This document shows, in pieces, positions 747 to 4,247 of a stretch of DNA of 4,247 bases. The translations under genes were made by a program, and so were the position numbers. Below the pieces are notes generated by a model. The model saw nothing but the letters and a program-made list of their open reading frames with translations. It was not told the DNA's origin and did not search any database. Source of the DNA: a virus (Duplodnaviria; Heunggongvirae; Uroviricota; Caudoviricetes). The stretch is from IMG/VR virus record IMGVR_UViG_2778261674_000006; one strand, given 5' to 3'. Position 1 is the stretch's first letter. Every line of letters starts with the position of its first letter.

Positions 747-1388
747 TCAGCGACCAATCACCACAACCTGACCACCATCACCTTCATCTGCCGTGCTGAT
801 CTCCTGAGATACCACCCGCGACCCCACACGCATTTCACCGTACAGAACGGGCAGGACATTGCCCTGGGCAACCATATTATCCAGTGAAGAAAAATAGGTG
901 TTCTGTTTGCCGTTATCCGTTGTCTGTGTGCGAGGGGTTTTGGGTCTAGGGGCCAGCATCTGTGCAACACCGCCAAGCGTCATACTGGCGCCGAGAGAAA
1001 ACAGCAGATTACTCGCCATAATTCCTACCCCCGGCATCCATATAGCAACCGCCATAACAGCCGCCCCCAGCACAGCCTGAAACACACCGCCACTTTTGGC
1101 TCCTGCCAGACGCGGCACGATATGGATCACAGCACCATTTGCCAGCGGTTCATTAAGACGGGCTGATAATTCCGTTTCACCTGTATCACGCCCGGCAATG
1201 CGTACCTGATACCAGCCGTCGCTCAGCTTCTGACGAAACGCCGGGATCTGCATGGCCAGCGCCCGGATGGCTTCGGCCCCCGTTTTCACACGAAGGTCGA
1301 TGCGGCGGCCAAATCGTTGCAAATCCCCGTAAAGGCAGATGCGTGCCATTCCCGGTGACGCCAGAGGGAGTGTGTGCGTCGCTGCCAT
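747..1388 (-). CDS. I: Tail assembly protein I (lambda gpI family), 213 aa
   Basis: ORF-track protein MAATHTLPLASPGMARICLYGDLQRFGRRIDLRVKTGAEAIRAL...NGKQNTYFSSLDNMVAQGNVLPVLYGEMRVGSRVVSQEISTADEGDGGQVVVIGR matches lambda gpI as I recall it. Its start overlaps the 3' end of K by 103 bp, and a ~60-bp spacer precedes J, as I recall for lambda. Confidence 0.88.
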   Translation of the reverse strand: MAATHTLPLASPGMARICLYGDLQRFGRRIDLRVKTGAEAIRALAMQIPAFRQKLSDGWYQVRIAGRDTGETELSARLNEPLANGAVIHIVPRLAGAKSGGVFQAVLGAAVMAVAIWMPGVGIMASNLLFSLGASMTLGGVAQMLAPRPKTPRTQTTDNGKQNTYFSSLDNMVAQGNVLPVLYGEMRVGSRVVSQEISTADEGDGGQVVVIGR

Positions 1389-2023
1389 TTGTCGGTATAC
1401 CTCTCTCGTTTACTCAGTTGTTCAGGAATATGGTGCAGCAGCTCACCGTCGCCGCAGTAAATGGCGGCATGATTCGGCACCGATGAACCAAAGCAGCACA
1501 GCAGCACATCGCCAGGCTGCGCCTCTGTCAGTGGGACACGGTAAAAACCAGTCGCCTCCATATTGTCAAGATAGAGATTCTGACCGTGACGCCACCAGTC
1601 ATCCCCGCGATAAAAATCCGGCATCTCAATCCCCGCCAGATGATAAGCATCCCGGAACAGCGTGTAACAGTCCGTCACCCCGTGCTCAAAGCGCCGCCCG
1701 GTGAGATGCGGCACACAGCGGAACTTGTGAATCGCCCCCCGGCAGACCAGCCACCACGGCAAATCACTCTGCACCTGCAGCCGCCGGTCGGCCTCACTCA
1801 GCCAGGGCAGACCACCGGGGTGACTGTGGACCAGCGCCACAATCTCACCCTGCATCTCTGCCTGCAGCCAGTCCTCCGGAGCCATCCGGAAATACGCCTC
1901 CGGCTCACCGGAGATATTCACGCAGGAAAAATATCTTTCCTCCTCCGGCGTTCTCACCACGAAGCCGCACGACTCCGCTGGCGCACATCGCCGGGCGTGC
2001 GCCAATATATTGCTATAGGGCAT
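1286..2023 (-). CDS. K: Tail assembly protein K (lambda gpK family; MPN/JAMM-like N-terminal region plus NlpC/P60-like C-terminal region), 245 aa from the ATG at 2023
   Basis: ORF-track frame 1286..2062. It contains the JAMM-type motif HSHPGGLPWLSEAD preceded by EMQGE, and Cys/His-containing segments (GVTDCYTLF, HAAIY, HHIPE) typical of NlpC/P60 peptidases. I chose the start at 2023 because AGGAG (2033..2029) sits 5 nt upstream; the track's ATG at 2062 would put a terminator hairpin inside the coding sequence and lacks a ribosome-binding site. An in-frame ATG at 1885 is a third alternative. Confidence 0.82.
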   Translation of the reverse strand: MPYSNILAHARRCAPAESCGFVVRTPEEERYFSCVNISGEPEAYFRMAPEDWLQAEMQGEIVALVHSHPGGLPWLSEADRRLQVQSDLPWWLVCRGAIHKFRCVPHLTGRRFEHGVTDCYTLFRDAYHLAGIEMPDFYRGDDWWRHGQNLYLDNMEATGFYRVPLTEAQPGDVLLCCFGSSVPNHAAIYCGDGELLHHIPEQLSKRERYTDKWQRRTHSLWRHREWHASAFTGICNDLAAASTFV

Positions 2024-2034
2024 GAGAACTCCTG

Positions 2035-2059
2035 ATAAAAAACCCAGCCGAAGCTGGGT
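2035..2059 (-). terminator. Intrinsic terminator downstream of the antirepressor gene and immediately upstream of the K ribosome-binding site
   Basis: Minus-strand reading: ACCCAGC-ttcg-GCTGGGT (2059..2042) followed by TTTTTTAT (2041..2034), then AGGAG and the ATG of K. This is a classic GC stem plus U-tract. Confidence 0.6.
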
Positions 2060-2077
2060 CATTTCGTTGGCAATCTG

Positions 2078-2998
2078 TTAGTAGTGATGCAGTGAAGGAG
2101 GTAATTCTTTGTTCTTAAGTCTTAGCCATGCAGAAAGATTCGTTGGTCCGTCTGGCTCATTAATATCAATATCTCGCGTGTGATTGATTAAAACGTCTCT
2201 CGCCATTCCAATAACATACGAGAACTCATGACCGTAGTCGTAGCATCTGCAGGAATAGTTCGATTGAATTTGCTTTAGCGCCGGATACAGTTCGCGGAAT
2301 AATGCCTGTGAGCGGTTGGCATAATCCCATAACCATACAAGGCTGTTTGCTTCTTTTGCAGAAAGCTCGTTGGTTTTCTTCTCTTGTTTTCCGATGAATT
2401 CGCCTTCAAGTGGAATACGAGCAGCAAGTGACAGTGCTTCGGTAAACTGCTCCTCACTGATTTCTTTGTACGAACATCCAAAATGGGATTTCAGTGACGA
2501 CCACATGGTGATCATCGCCTTCGCCTGTTTTTCTTTTGGCAGAGACTGACCGCGACTCATGACGAGTTGTTTAATAGCTTCCTGCTGTTCAGTGGTGATT
2601 TTCCCCAGCAATGCCTTTTTAGCTTTGCGCGGGTTAATCACATGGCCTTTAGTCCAGTACTCGTAGAGCACATCGTCACACTCTTCCTGATACTGGATTA
2701 CCTTCTCGCGGATTTCAGGGCGGACTTTGTTAGGACTGATGGTTTGGAGCCAACCATTCAGTTTACGCAAAGCAAGGCAAATCATGGTCTGCATACCGCC
2801 AACTGAAGGTATTGCGATTTCCACAATACCTTTAGCAAATCTTTGTTTTAACTTTGTAAACTGTGAAGCCCAATCCATACCCATTCCCTCAACGATAGGT
2901 TTCATTGGGGTGTACGGTTCGCCGTTGTGATTGACGACATAAAGCTCTGCGCCGTGGAATGGCACGTTGATAGTAGATACCGCTGTTGCTATACTCAT
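2078..2998 (-). CDS. ant: Phage antirepressor (Ant-like; the N-terminal region resembles the P22 antirepressor N-terminal domain family), 306 aa from the ATG at 2998
   Basis: ORF-track frame 2078..3052. I chose the start at 2998 (MSIATAVSTINVPFHGAELYVVNHNGEPYTPMKPIVEGMGMDWASQFTKL...) because AAGGAA (3012..3007) lies 8 nt upstream; the 3052 start adds 18 residues that overlap a terminator hairpin. The protein resembles antirepressors from enterobacterial prophages, and the gene sits directly downstream of an Arc-like gene as in P22 immI. Confidence 0.75.
   Translation of the reverse strand: MSIATAVSTINVPFHGAELYVVNHNGEPYTPMKPIVEGMGMDWASQFTKLKQRFAKGIVEIAIPSVGGMQTMICLALRKLNGWLQTISPNKVRPEIREKVIQYQEECDDVLYEYWTKGHVINPRKAKKALLGKITTEQQEAIKQLVMSRGQSLPKEKQAKAMITMWSSLKSHFGCSYKEISEEQFTEALSLAARIPLEGEFIGKQEKKTNELSAKEANSLVWLWDYANRSQALFRELYPALKQIQSNYSCRCYDYGHEFSYVIGMARDVLINHTRDIDINEPDGPTNLSAWLRLKNKELPPSLHHY
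2967..2995 (+). promoter_or_regulatory. Candidate sigma70 promoter for an antisense (sar-like) RNA: TTGATA -17 bp- TATACT
   Basis: -35 TTGATA at 2967..2972, a 17-bp spacer, and -10 TATACT at 2990..2995 on the plus strand, inside the 5' end of ant and pointing away from it. The predicted transcription start is near 3002. Confidence 0.4.
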
Positions 2999-3001
2999 TT
3001 C

Positions 3002-3071
3002 GTTAGTTCCTTGGAAGTTACTGACATAGAAGCCCGATTTGTGTTCGCGCACTGTCGGGCTTCGCTATTTT
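3002..3071 (+). ncRNA. sar: Candidate sar-like cis-antisense small RNA (~70 nt) complementary to the ant ribosome-binding site and the arc-ant spacer
   Basis: It is bounded upstream by the promoter above and downstream by a plus-strand intrinsic terminator: stem GAAGCCCGA (3029..3037) / TCGGGCTTC (3055..3063), a 17-nt loop, then GCTATTTTTAT (T-tract 3066..3071). The transcript would be antisense to the ant Shine-Dalgarno at 3007..3012. As I recall, P22 has a ~70-nt sar RNA in the same position. Confidence 0.35.
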
Positions 3072-3238
3072 TATGTCCTAGCATTCTTCTCTCCAATCAG
3101 TCCGTACACTTTTCTCAATTGATAAATAAGTTCCGTGTTGAACTGTCGACACTCTTTTTCTCCATTTCTTTCAATCGCCTTCCTTACATCCTCTGGGAAA
3201 CGAACCTTGCGTTGATACATGTCTTTTGCTTTTTCCAT
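3071..3238 (-). CDS. arc: Arc-like ribbon-helix-helix transcriptional repressor, 55 aa (not in the supplied ORF track)
   Basis: Manual translation of the minus strand from the ATG at 3238..3236 gives MEKAKDMYQRKVRFPEDVRKAIERNGEKECRQFNTELIYQLRKVYGLIGEKNART, ending at TAA 3073..3071. A strong ribosome-binding site AAGGAG (3249..3244) lies 5 nt upstream. The pattern (basic beta-strand RKVRFPEDV, then N-[ST]-E-[IL]-x-Y-Q) resembles P22 Arc (...FNLRWPREVLDLVRKVAEENGRSVNSEIYQRV...) as I recall it. Confidence 0.65.
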   Translation of the reverse strand: MEKAKDMYQRKVRFPEDVRKAIERNGEKECRQFNTELIYQLRKVYGLIGEKNART

Positions 3239-3255
3239 CTCCACTCCTTAAATAG

Positions 3256-3318
3256 CCTCACTGTGGGGCAATCAAAATTGTCACACCGTGCGTCATTGAA
3301 GTCAACCCCACCGTGGGG
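3256..3318. promoter_or_regulatory. Three candidate operator sites with a CACNGTG core, centred at 3262, 3287 and 3312 (exactly 25 bp apart)
   Basis: Site 1, 3256..3268: CCTCAC-t-GTGGGG (one mismatch). Site 2, 3281..3293: tcaCAC-c-GTGcgt (core only). Site 3, 3306..3318: CCCCAC-c-GTGGGG (perfect 6+1+6 palindrome). Sites 1 and 3 also share the direct repeat CACYGTGGGGCA. Sites 2 and 3 fall in the spacers of the two divergent promoters; site 1 lies between the predicted ant-operon start and its ribosome-binding site. Confidence 0.55.
3277..3305 (-). promoter_or_regulatory. Candidate promoter for the arc-ant operon: TTGACT -17 bp- (TGt)GACAAT, minus strand
   Basis: Minus-strand reading: -35 TTGACT (3305..3300), a 17-bp spacer, and -10 GACAAT (3282..3277) preceded by a TGn extended -10 motif. 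Site 2 lies in the spacer. Confidence 0.4.
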
Positions 3319-3324
3319 CATAAT
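3296..3324 (+). promoter_or_regulatory. Candidate promoter for the mnt-like gene: TTGAAG -17 bp- CATAAT, plus strand
   Basis: -35 TTGAAG (3296..3301), a 17-bp spacer containing the perfect palindrome (site 3), and -10 CATAAT (3319..3324). Its -35 overlaps the -35 of the divergent arc-ant promoter (3300..3305). Confidence 0.45.
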
Positions 3325-3361
3325 TTACTTATTGTGAATTTTTCCTGTTTGGACTAATGGT

Positions 3362-3736
3362 ATGAGTAGAGAAGACCCTCAACTTCGGATTAGGCTTCCT
3401 GTTGAATTAAAAAAAATAATTGAAGCGTCATCAAAACAAAATAATCGTTCTATGAATGCTGAGATTGTCACTCTGCTTGAGTTGGCGATTCGTGTTTGTC
3501 GTGATTTTGGGCCGGAGGATGGTCCTATCGTTCAGCAGTTTAAAGAACAACTAGATGCGATAAACAGAAAATATGATAAAAGCGAGCATGAAAAACTTAT
3601 ACCTCAACTTTTAGAAATCATAGAAAAACAGAAAAAACAAGTAGATAAACTTATTAGCATGGTTGAAAGATCAATTCCTCTTTCAGAGGAATATAAGCAG
3701 AAATATCTTGGTGATGACAACAAAAAACCCACCTGA
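3362..3736 (+). CDS. mnt: Mnt-like ribbon-helix-helix repressor with an extended C-terminal, probably coiled-coil, region; 124 aa
   Basis: ORF-track protein MSREDPQLRIRLPVELKKIIEASSKQNNRSMNAEIVTLLELAI... aligns by eye with P22 Mnt (MARDDPHFNFRMPMEVREKLKFRAEANGRSMNSELLQIVQDAL, from memory): M-x-R-[DE]-DP, R-[ML]-P-x-E-[VL], N-RSMN-[SA]-E-[LI]. The C-terminal ~70 residues are rich in K/E/Q/L with a heptad-like pattern. The gene is divergent from arc-ant. Confidence 0.78.
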   Translation: MSREDPQLRIRLPVELKKIIEASSKQNNRSMNAEIVTLLELAIRVCRDFGPEDGPIVQQFKEQLDAINRKYDKSEHEKLIPQLLEIIEKQKKQVDKLISMVERSIPLSEEYKQKYLGDDNKKPT

Positions 3737-3743
3737 TGGTGGG
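3722..3743 (-). terminator. Hairpin plus T-tract at the convergent L / mnt-like junction; terminator-like only for the minus (L) strand
   Basis: Minus-strand reading: CCCACC-atca-GGTGGG (3743..3728) followed by TTTTTTG (3727..3721), beginning 10 nt after the L stop codon. On the plus strand the hairpin is preceded, not followed, by the A/T run, so it is a poor terminator for the mnt-like transcript. The hairpin overlaps the last mnt-like codons and its stop (3734..3736). Confidence 0.45.
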
Positions 3744-3752
3744 CATAATCCA

Positions 3753-4247
3753 TTACTGCGAAAGCTTGTTAATGGAAAGGAAGCCGCCAAAGTTGCCGAC
3801 GTTATTGCGAAACTTACAGCCACTCAGGCATTTGCTGCATTTATCCTTCGTGATATCGGACGTTGGCTGGTCATATTCATCCGCGACTGCCGGACCGTTA
3901 TAACCGCACTCATCACCGCGATAGGTCCAGGTGCAGGTGTTGGCCAGCATGATACGTCCCGGAAAAACAGCGCCATCTGTTTCCGTCGGCGTGGACAGTA
4001 CAAAAGAGGCACTGACCGCGCTCAGTTCGCTGCACTGCTCGATGCGCCAGCGGCTGATCACCTCCTGCTCCGGATCGGCGTCGCTGTTTCCGTTGACGAA
4101 GTTCACCGCATCCAGAAAACGGGCATAAACCTTACGCCTGACCACCGTTCCGCCGACCAGACTCTGCAGGTCTTCCGCCATCCCGGTGACCATACCGTAC
4201 AGGTTAGAAACCGTCAGCGTGGGGCGCGTACTGGTGCCTTTGCCATT
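3753..4247 (-). CDS. L: Tail tip protein L, C-terminal ~164 aa; the 5' end lies beyond the window end
   Basis: ORF-track protein (from an internal Met) MVTGMAEDLQSLVGGTVVRRKVYARFLDAVNFVNGNSDADPEQEVISRWRIEQCSELS...CSKCLSGCKFRNNVGNFGGFLSINKLSQ matches lambda gpL as I recall it, including the Cys-rich C-terminus. The frame 3753..4193 is given in the track and appears to stay open up to 4247. Confidence 0.85.
   Translation of the reverse strand, partial: NGKGTSTRPTLTVSNLYGMVTGMAEDLQSLVGGTVVRRKVYARFLDAVNFVNGNSDADPEQEVISRWRIEQCSELSAVSASFVLSTPTETDGAVFPGRIMLANTCTWTYRGDECGYNGPAVADEYDQPTSDITKDKCSKCLSGCKFRNNVGNFGGFLSINKLSQ

What the first reader, a model, noticed from the sequence alone, without database searches (positions are those of the whole stretch)
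3722..3755. Shared hairpin at the convergent L / mnt-like gene ends terminates only one strand
The CCCACC/GGTGGG hairpin is followed by a T-tract only on the minus strand, so L-strand transcripts can terminate here. The mnt-like transcript (plus strand) has no obvious terminator and would run antisense into L. This may couple mnt expression to interference with late tail transcription, or it may simply be a cassette boundary. The hairpin also overlaps the mnt-like stop codon.
Basis: seen in the sequence. Interest (0 to 1): 0.35.

Follow-up and report, generated by a model that had tools for sequence, protein, structure and literature searches.

The report
One-way terminator bordering antirepressor cassette
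The hairpin is a real, conserved, ordinary transcription terminator that points in the direction of the phage tail genes and marks one edge of a P22-style antirepressor cassette inserted between tail genes L and K; it is ordinary phage housekeeping, not a new regulatory device.

Summary
The hairpin at 3727-3744 has a T-tract only on the minus (L-sense) strand. There it looks as strong as P22's annotated ant terminator (dG -12.1, 7 of 8 T). The plus strand has the hairpin but only 2 of 8 T. The stop codon of the mnt-like gene lies in the loop.

The setting is a 1.73 kb, low-GC, P22 immI-type "ant moron" (mnt-like, arc-like, sar-like, ant, t_ant) inserted between lambda-type tail genes L and K. 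In lambda itself only 5 bases separate the L stop from the K-homologous reading frame.

The hairpin corresponds to the one at the 3' end of P22 mnt (KKTT*/KKPT* with TGA in the loop). In P22-like phages it carries T-rich tails on both sides. Here the join to L, 8 nt away, replaces the mnt-side tail.

The same A-run, hairpin and spacer block ends at least five different repressor genes next to L, and occurs in at least 305 of 5426 complete E. coli genomes.

Best reading: a late-sense terminator that shields arc-ant from unmodified read-through. Q-modified polymerase would pass it, and ribosomes stopping at the L stop would mask it. The proposed antisense interference with L has no support. Termination itself was not tested. 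Interest is low.

The parts
3727..3744 (-). Terminator hairpin. Minus-strand RNA is GCCCACC-AUCA-GGUGGGU, 7 bp including one G.U. On the plus strand it forms 6 bp.
3717..3726 (-). U-tract of the L-sense terminator (TTTTTGTTGT on the minus strand). On the plus strand it is the A-run that encodes the N-K-K of the mnt-like C-terminus.
   Evidence: The A-run is kept even where it is non-coding in relatives.
3734..3736 (+). TGA stop codon of the mnt-like gene, inside the hairpin loop.
   Evidence: Same arrangement in P22 mnt and many relatives.
3745..3752 (-). 8-nt spacer between the L stop codon and the stem. It takes the place of the T-rich tail that follows the hairpin in the mnt sense in P22-like phages.
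3753..4247 (-). 3' part of tail gene L (Phage_tail_L). Stop codon at 3753-3755.
   Evidence: E 1e-77
3362..3736 (+). mnt-like ribbon-helix-helix repressor, 124 aa, ending ..DDNKKPT*.
   Evidence: Arc domain, E 3e-07; alignment with P22 Mnt
3245..3361 (.). Divergent control region between the mnt-like and arc-like genes. Holds operator-like repeats at 3255-3270 and 3306-3320 and promoter-like sites.
   Evidence: Function is inferred from the P22 Pant/Pmnt layout.
3071..3238 (-). arc-like small repressor gene.
   Evidence: Arc domain, E 0.0012, 19.1 bits, just under the 20.4-bit cut-off; annotated CDS of the same extent in L002, named 'hypothetical protein' there
2967..3074 (+). sar-like antisense unit. 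The best promoter match in the window (TTGATA-17-TATACT, 2967-2995) sits opposite the ant start. It is followed by hairpin 3029-3063 and a T-run.
   Evidence: aligns with the P22 sar region. No Rfam match.
2078..2998 (-). Antirepressor gene ant (P22_AR_N and P22_AR_C domains).
   Evidence: E 1e-44 and 4e-29
2031..2060 (-). Second late-sense terminator at the K-side edge of the cassette. The hairpin is identical to that of P22's annotated ant terminator. The K ribosome-binding site lies in its tail.
   Evidence: P22 annotation
1286..2023 (-). Tail gene K (JAB and NlpC/P60 domains), the next late gene downstream of the cassette.

Best explanation
The element is an intrinsic (Rho-independent) terminator that works in the L / late-operon direction. 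It sits 8 nt after the L stop codon and forms the L-side edge of a P22 immI-type antirepressor cassette (mnt-like, arc-like, sar-like, ant, t_ant) inserted between tail genes L and K. With the t_ant homologue at the K-side edge, the cassette is bracketed by two terminators that both face the late operon.

Proposed working:
- In a lysogen, RNA polymerase that has not been modified by the phage antiterminator and drifts down the tail genes is stopped before it reaches Pant-arc-ant. This prevents accidental antirepressor synthesis.
- In lytic growth, Q-modified polymerase reads through both terminators to express K, I and J. A ribosome finishing L, only 8 nt from the stem, further masks the hairpin.
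- In the mnt direction the same hairpin has no U-tract and is melted by the ribosome stopping in its loop. It is therefore at best a weak terminator or a 3'-end stabiliser. Transcripts from the mnt-like promoter probably run some way antisense into L, until Rho or a chance site stops them.

Shown: the anatomy, the correspondence to the hairpin at the 3' end of P22 mnt, the conservation, and the boundary position.
Inferred: termination itself, the insulation role, and read-through by Q.
For: - Canonical features on the minus strand only: dG -12.1 and tail score 4.50, against -13.5 and 4.00 for P22's annotated ant terminator.
- The cassette is an insertion. Of about 120 viral contigs carrying a lambda-type L 3' end, nearly all have the K start a few bases after the L stop and only about 6 carry the hairpin. 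In lambda the K-homologous frame opens 5 nt after the L stop. Cassette GC is 0.36-0.47 against 0.55-0.65 in the flanks.
- P22 correspondence. P22 mnt ends AAAAAAACCACC-TGA-CGGCGGG, and on the late-sense strand that reads CCGCCGTCAGGTGG + TTTTTTTGTA. The gene order matches P22, the t_ant hairpin is identical and the sar region aligns.
- The block AAAAAACCCACCTGAYGGTGGGCATAATCCA next to L closes five different plus-strand units: RHH genes of 124, 106 and 84 aa, an HTH+S24 repressor, and an RHH + ClpP-like pair.
- The A-run, which is the U-tract in the L sense, persists where it is non-coding (type D; L176, L198, L201).
- Natural variants keep pairing through G.U mostly in the late/L sense: P22 GGCGGG, GGTGAG on two backgrounds, GGTGGA, and the outer GGTGGGTC/GGTGGGCA forms. 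Only one variant in this set does so in the mnt sense; a second, in a separate subfamily, was seen by eye (L189).
- A 99%-identical prophage has an antitermination protein where lambda has Q.
- A terminator 5-9 bp after a stop codon is almost fully repressed by the ribosome (PMC4824070).
- Terminators inside late operons have been noted in P22-like phages and suggested to stop spurious, non-antiterminated transcription (PMC8022706).
Against: - No transcript data were available, so termination on either strand is unproven.
- The G.U asymmetry rests on about 5-6 events against 1-2. That is not significant and could reflect mutation bias.
- In three of the cassette types the A-run is also coding (Lys-Lys), so its conservation there has a second explanation.
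- In P22-like relatives the hairpin looks bidirectional. The ancestral role may therefore have been mainly to end mnt transcripts.
- Untranslated stray transcripts in the tail genes would be exposed to Rho anyway, so the need for an insulator is not demonstrated.
Confidence: 0.6

Rival explanations
1. The hairpin serves mainly the mnt-like mRNA, as a weak terminator or as a barrier to 3' exonucleases that fixes and stabilises its 3' end. On this view the A-run is there only because it encodes Lys-Lys, and the L-sense terminator appearance is incidental.
For: - Every version found lies at or just after the end of a plus-strand repressor unit.
- In P22-like phages a T-rich tail follows the hairpin in the mnt sense.
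- The plus-strand hairpin is stable, dG -11.8.
Against: - Here only 2 of 8 bases after the stem are T.
- The stop codon is in the loop, so a terminating ribosome would melt the stem (principle from PMC4824070).
- P22 mnt has its own annotated terminator further on, after orf59a.
- The A-run persists where it is non-coding.
- Wobble variants favour the other strand.
Confidence: 0.2
2. One reading: transcripts from the mnt-like promoter, lacking a terminator, run antisense through L and damp late tail gene expression, so that immunity is coupled to tail synthesis.
For: - No plus-strand terminator-like site lies between 3745 and the end of the window.
- The next candidate is a weak one about 560 nt downstream, inside L (L002 14352-14368).
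Against: - Nothing in the antisense stretch looks selected. The L 3' end is essentially the same as in lambda, which has no cassette.
- The lack of a T-tract is explained by the join to L.
- L is silent in a lysogen.
- In P22, Arc represses Pmnt in lytic growth (my knowledge, not tested here).
- Q-modified late transcription is strong and processive.
Confidence: 0.07
3. The block is only a recombination joint, a mosaic boundary sequence kept by descent, and has no present role in transcription.
For: - Identical 40-nt junctions sit beside at least five different upstream genes next to L.
- At least six different downstream sequences start right after the hairpin in P22-like phages.
Against: - The hairpin and A-run are kept between distant phage types (P22-like podoviruses and lambda-like siphoviruses) while the flanks diverge.
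- A compensatory stem change is seen (L178).
- Being a boundary and being a terminator do not exclude each other.
Confidence: 0.1
4. The palindrome CCCACC-N4-GGTGGG is a DNA binding site for a cassette repressor. It resembles the CCCCAC-C-GTGGGG repeat in the control region.
For: The motifs CCCAC and GTGGG recur at 3255-3270 and 3306-3320.
Against: - The half-site spacing differs: 6 nt here against 1 nt in the control region.
- The same hairpin accompanies cassettes with quite different repressors and control regions, for example Stx phage 1717 and the EC12 HTH-S24 type.
Confidence: 0.03

Closest known systems
3' end of phage P22 mnt (immI region)
   Same: The Mnt-family repressor ends K-K-(T/P)-T-stop. 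The A-run and the 5' arm supply the last codons, and TGA sits in the hairpin loop. On the late-operon strand the hairpin is followed by a T-run. It lies upstream, in the late sense, of Pant-arc-sar-ant-t_ant.
   Different: In P22 and its relatives a T-rich tail also follows in the mnt sense, and further genes (orf59a, sieA) lie between mnt and the preceding late gene 16. Here the hairpin abuts tail gene L with only 8 nt between, and it has no mnt-sense tail. The P22 record does not annotate this hairpin as a terminator.
P22 ant terminator (t_ant, annotated in the RefSeq record; characterised experimentally to my recollection, not checked here) and the 'ant moron' of P22-like phages (Villafane et al. 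2008, PMC2629481)
   Same: An independently regulated antirepressor cassette sits inside the late operon. It ends in a late-sense terminator that antiterminated late transcription must cross to reach the next virion gene. The hairpin at window 2041-2060 is identical to that of P22 t_ant.
   Different: The host operon is a lambda-type siphovirus tail cluster (between L and K), not the 16-9 interval of a podovirus. The element under study is at the upstream edge of the cassette, not the downstream one.
Bidirectional intrinsic terminators between convergent E. coli genes (programmed RNAP collision at a shared stem-loop; Wang et al., bioRxiv 10.1101/2022.10.23.513370)
   Same: A single hairpin is shared by two convergent genes (for the concept).
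   Different: Only one side carries the U-tract here, so the defining symmetric A-tract/U-tract arrangement is absent.
Ribosome-masked terminators close to stop codons (Li et al. 2015, PMC4824070)
   Same: The distance from the stop codon to the stem is 8 nt in the L sense, and the stop lies inside the loop in the mnt sense. Both are in the range where tR2 was almost fully repressed.
   Different: That work used an engineered tR2 reporter. Nothing has been measured for this site.

Membership tests
Intrinsic (Rho-independent) terminator, L / late-operon sense (minus strand) | G+C-rich stem-loop of about 5-10 bp with a short loop | tested here: met
   7 bp, 5 of them G-C, 4-nt loop, dG -12.1
Intrinsic (Rho-independent) terminator, L / late-operon sense (minus strand) | U-rich tract immediately 3' of the stem | tested here: met
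   TTTTTGTTGT, 7 of 8 T, tail score 4.50, against 4.00 for P22's annotated ant terminator
Intrinsic (Rho-independent) terminator, L / late-operon sense (minus strand) | Transcripts actually end there | not testable with these tools
   No Term-seq or RNA-seq data were accessible. The supplement of PMC7547250 is not held.
Intrinsic terminator, mnt sense (plus strand) | U-rich tract immediately 3' of the stem | tested here: not met
   ATAATCCA, 2 of 8 T, tail score 0.79. Not listed by the scan.
Bidirectional terminator of a convergent gene pair | Hairpin flanked by an A-tract on one side and a T-tract on the other, so that both strands read hairpin + U-tract | tested here: not met
   The tract is present on one side only in the window. 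It is present on both sides in P22-like relatives.
P22 immI-type antirepressor cassette ('ant moron') | Mnt-like RHH repressor divergent from an arc-like gene followed by ant (P22_AR_N and P22_AR_C) | tested here: met
   Pfam hits; the arc-like hit is just under the Pfam cut-off. Same order as P22.
P22 immI-type antirepressor cassette ('ant moron') | sar-type antisense unit across the ant start, and a terminator after ant | tested here: met
   Promoter 2967-2995 plus hairpin 3029-3063, which aligns with P22 sar. t_ant hairpin identical. Transcription not shown.
Moron (insertion into a phage operon) | Absent between the same two adjacent genes in related phages; different base composition; own promoter and terminator | tested here: met
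   Lambda and most lambda-type contigs have L directly followed by K. GC 0.36-0.47 against 0.55-0.65. Promoter- and terminator-like sites.

The most novel reading that the evidence does not exclude
The roughly 40-nt block (A-run, hairpin, 8-nt spacer) may be a portable joint as well as a terminator. Exchange at this joint could let quite different repressor genes be swapped in front of the same tail gene L: RHH genes of three lengths, an HTH+S24 self-cleaving type, and an RHH with a ClpP-like partner. That would oblige otherwise dissimilar proteins, at least one of a different fold, to share the terminator-encoded tail (N/D)KKPT. Because the terminator faces one way and is masked by the ribosome finishing L, it would stop only untranslated, unmodified polymerases. 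Antirepressor insulation would then be conditional on the state of the phage.
Probability: 0.3. Interest if true: 0.35.

Novelty: new member of a known kind. Interest (0 to 1): 0.15.

Why it matters
The practical value is for annotation.
- Many lambda-like and Stx prophages of E. coli, including O157:H7 EDL933, carry a complete P22-style secondary immunity cassette inside the tail operon.
- Its edges are two co-oriented terminators, which gives exact boundaries for that cassette.
- This explains why diverse repressors there end in KKPT.
- It warns that a terminator between L and K does not mean the tail operon ends there.

It does not open a new mechanism. Terminators inside late operons that antiterminated polymerase crosses, and morons with their own terminators, are established ideas.

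Tried and rejected
- Rfam scan of the whole window at E <= 1: nothing, so neither the hairpin nor the sar-like unit matches a curated RNA family.
- Looked for published strand-specific 3'-end data for EHEC strains that carry the junction. One Term-seq paper was found (PMC7547250), but no supplement is held.
- Considered that the hairpin belongs to the 3' end of L. Rejected, because similarity to lambda and other L genes stops exactly at the L stop codon.
- At first read type D cassettes as having no convergent gene at the hairpin. ORF calling then showed a plus-strand ClpP-like gene ending about 25 nt before it. The minus-strand ORF there is antisense to that gene and probably spurious.
- The plus-strand ORF 3736..3903, whose ATG overlaps the TGA in the loop, was dismissed. 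The ATG is lost in the TGAC-loop variants.
- The minus-strand promoter-like site 3772-3745 matches 9 of 12 positions and fires straight into the hairpin, so it was treated as chance.
- Composition on the plus strand downstream of the hairpin gives only a mild C-over-G bias, from about 4060 to 4220. This neither supports nor excludes Rho termination of the mnt-like transcript.
- The strand-specific wobble count leans to the L sense but is too small to be decisive.

Full report
**What is in the window.**
All large genes lie on the minus strand and are lambda-type tail genes:
- L, 3753 to beyond 4247 (Phage_tail_L, E 1e-77)
- K, 1286-2023 (JAB and NlpC/P60 domains)
- I, 747-1388
- the start of J, up to 686

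Between L and K sits a 1.73 kb block of lower G+C, 0.36-0.47 against 0.55-0.65 in the flanks. It holds:
- a plus-strand 124-aa ribbon-helix-helix gene, 3362-3736 (Arc domain)
- a divergent control region
- a small arc-like gene, 3071-3238
- an antirepressor gene, 2078-2998 (P22_AR_N and P22_AR_C)

A 99%-identical prophage lies at the bio locus of an E. coli pig isolate. It has the ordinary lambdoid layout, including an antitermination protein where lambda has Q.

**Checking the observation.**
- On the minus strand a seventh pair, G.U, is added and the stem is followed by TTTTTGTTGT. The scan lists the site on that strand only.
- My scoring gives dG -12.1 and tail score 4.50 (7 of 8 T) for the minus strand. 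The plus strand gives dG -11.8 and tail score 0.79 (2 of 8 T).
- For comparison, P22's annotated ant terminator scores -13.5 and 4.00.
- The TGA of the mnt-like gene, 3734-3736, is in the loop. The L stop codon, 3753-3755, is 8 nt from the stem.
- Taken alone the site is only mildly unusual. Fold z-scores are about -2.1 to -2.4. The window holds 7 terminator-like sites against 4.6 expected. Its reality therefore rests on comparison with other sequences.

**The cassette is an insertion, and the hairpin belongs to it.**
- Similarity to lambda and many other L genes stops exactly at the L stop codon.
- In lambda the K-homologous frame opens 5 nt after the L stop.
- Among about 120 viral contigs carrying a lambda-type L 3' end, nearly all have that direct L-K join and only about 6 carry the hairpin.

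**The hairpin is a conserved boundary block.**
I anchored a search in L, outside the hairpin. It returned 45 viral contigs with AAAAAACCCACCTGAYGGTGGGCATAATCCA next to L. Upstream of this block the sequences fall into unrelated classes:
- the 124-aa gene of this window (..DDNKKPT*)
- a 106-aa RHH gene (..LLNKKPT*), which is frameshifted in Stx2 phage 1717
- an 84-aa RHH gene (..GEDKKPT*), also present in EDL933
- an RHH gene followed by a ClpP-like gene whose stop lies about 25 nt before the hairpin
- in strain EC12, a 269-aa HTH + S24 peptidase repressor ending ..RDNKKPT*

The TGAT-loop version alone occurs in at least 305 of 5426 complete E. coli genomes.

**Correspondence with P22.**
- P22 mnt ends TAC AAA AAA ACC ACC TGA CGGCGGG, that is ..YKKTT* with TGA in the loop. 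On the late-operon strand this reads CCGCCGTCAGGTGG followed by TTTTTTTGTA.
- A protein-guided search and a search anchored upstream in mnt show that most P22-like mnt genes end AAAAAACCCACC-TGAN-GGTGGGTT, that is ..KKPT*.
- In those phages the stem extends to 8 bp and T-rich tails follow on both sides. At least six unrelated downstream sequences start right after the hairpin, so it is a mosaic boundary there too.
- Other relatives use a shifted register, AGCCCAC-CTGA-GTGGGCT. One carries a compensatory CAG/CTG pair (L178). Several keep the upstream A-run where it is non-coding (L176, L198, L201).
- The rest of the cassette matches immI as well. The order is mnt, Pmnt/Pant, arc, sar, ant, t_ant. 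The hairpin at 2041-2060 is identical to that of P22 t_ant. The arc-ant gap aligns with P22 sar, including the -10 box and the terminator stem.
- The window therefore holds the 'ant moron' described for P22-like phages (PMC2629481), here placed in a siphovirus tail operon.

**Which strand does the hairpin serve?**
Three points favour the L / late-operon sense.
- Only that strand has a U-tract here.
- The A-run that encodes this U-tract survives in non-coding settings.
- Natural stem variants that keep pairing only through G.U are mostly of the kind that pair in the late sense. These are P22 GGCGGG, GGTGAG on two backgrounds, GGTGGA at an L junction, and the outer GGTGGGTC/GGTGGGCA forms. Only one variant of the opposite kind appears in that set, and a second was seen by eye in a separate subfamily (L189).

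The last point is suggestive only, at about 5-6 events against 1-2.

In the mnt sense the ribosome terminating in the loop would melt the stem, and no U-tract follows. The next plus-strand terminator-like site is a weak one about 560 nt further on, inside L. The downstream C-over-G bias is mild.

**How it most likely works.**
K, I and J follow on the same strand, so the terminator lies inside the late operon. Late transcription must cross it, and also the t_ant homologue.
- Shown: the prophage encodes an antitermination protein where lambda has Q, and the stop-to-stem distance is 8 nt.
- From the literature: a terminator 5-9 bp after a stop codon is almost fully repressed by the terminating ribosome (PMC4824070). 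Terminators inside late operons occur in P22-like phages and have been suggested to stop spurious transcription that lacks antitermination (PMC8022706).
- Inferred: in a lysogen the hairpin stops unmodified polymerases from entering Pant-arc-ant, and in lytic growth it is passed.

The missing mnt-side tail is best explained by the join to L, which takes the place of the T-rich sequence seen in P22-like relatives.

The one-strand reading and the cassette-boundary alternative are supported. The idea that run-on mnt transcripts interfere with tail expression has no support:
- The antisense stretch is plain L sequence shared with phages that lack the cassette.
- L is silent in lysogens.
- In P22, Arc turns Pmnt down in lytic growth (my knowledge, not tested here).

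**Novelty and verdict.**
I found no paper describing this particular junction, and the P22 record does not annotate the matching hairpin. The kind of element is nonetheless well known: an intrinsic terminator at the edge of a moron, read through by antiterminated late transcription. I file it as a new member of a known kind, of low interest. The modestly interesting residue is that a terminator doubles as a shared recombination joint and supplies the last codons of otherwise dissimilar repressors.

Noticed in passing
window 2967-3074 (+): A sar-like antisense unit. The best sigma-70 match in the window (TTGATA-17-TATACT with TG) abuts the ant start codon on the opposite strand. It is followed by a strong hairpin at 3029-3063 (the 60-nt segment holding it folds at dG -24) and a T-run that overlaps the end of the arc-like gene. 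The region aligns with P22 sar but has no Rfam hit.
   Followed up: partly
window 3255-3270 and 3306-3320: Two copies of CC(T/C)CAC(T/C)GTGGGGCA, 50 bp apart, lie in the divergent control region. The second is a near-perfect palindrome, CCCCAC-C-GTGGGG. They are candidate operators for the mnt-like or arc-like repressor.
   Followed up: partly
window 2021-2060 (-): The K-side edge of the cassette is a hairpin identical to that of P22 t_ant. The K ribosome-binding site (AGGAG) lies inside the terminator tail. The first codons of K (MPYSNILAH) differ from lambda's (MTQTESAILAH), so the right-hand junction of the cassette lies inside the 5' end of K.
   Followed up: partly
L168 2905-3714 (E. coli EC12): In one cassette variant the Mnt-like RHH repressor is replaced by a 269-aa HTH + peptidase S24 (CI/LexA-like, potentially self-cleaving) protein that ends in the same DNKKPT* and hairpin. 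This would put the antirepressor under DNA-damage control.
   Followed up: partly
L074, L130, L144 (viral contigs), cassette between L and K: Another variant carries a 178-aa ClpP-like gene directly after the mnt-like gene. Only residues 23-96 match the CLP_protease family. Its stop lies about 25 nt before the shared hairpin.
   Followed up: partly
L001 4379-4724 (Stx2 phage 1717): The 106-aa mnt-like gene, intact in contig L160, is split into two overlapping ORFs in phage 1717. This looks like a frameshift, so antirepressor control may be altered there.
   Followed up: no
L003 734-913 (lambda 14133-14312): In the lambda reference an ORF starting 5 nt after the L stop encodes 44 residues homologous to the N-terminus of K in this window (the JAB domain part). 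It then runs out of frame with the annotated K start at 14276. There is a 1-nt length difference relative to the window.
   Followed up: partly
window 3736-3903 (+): The loop sequence TGATG creates an ATG that overlaps the mnt-like stop and opens a 55-codon ORF antisense to L. The ATG is absent in the TGAC-loop variants, so the ORF is probably meaningless.
   Followed up: yes
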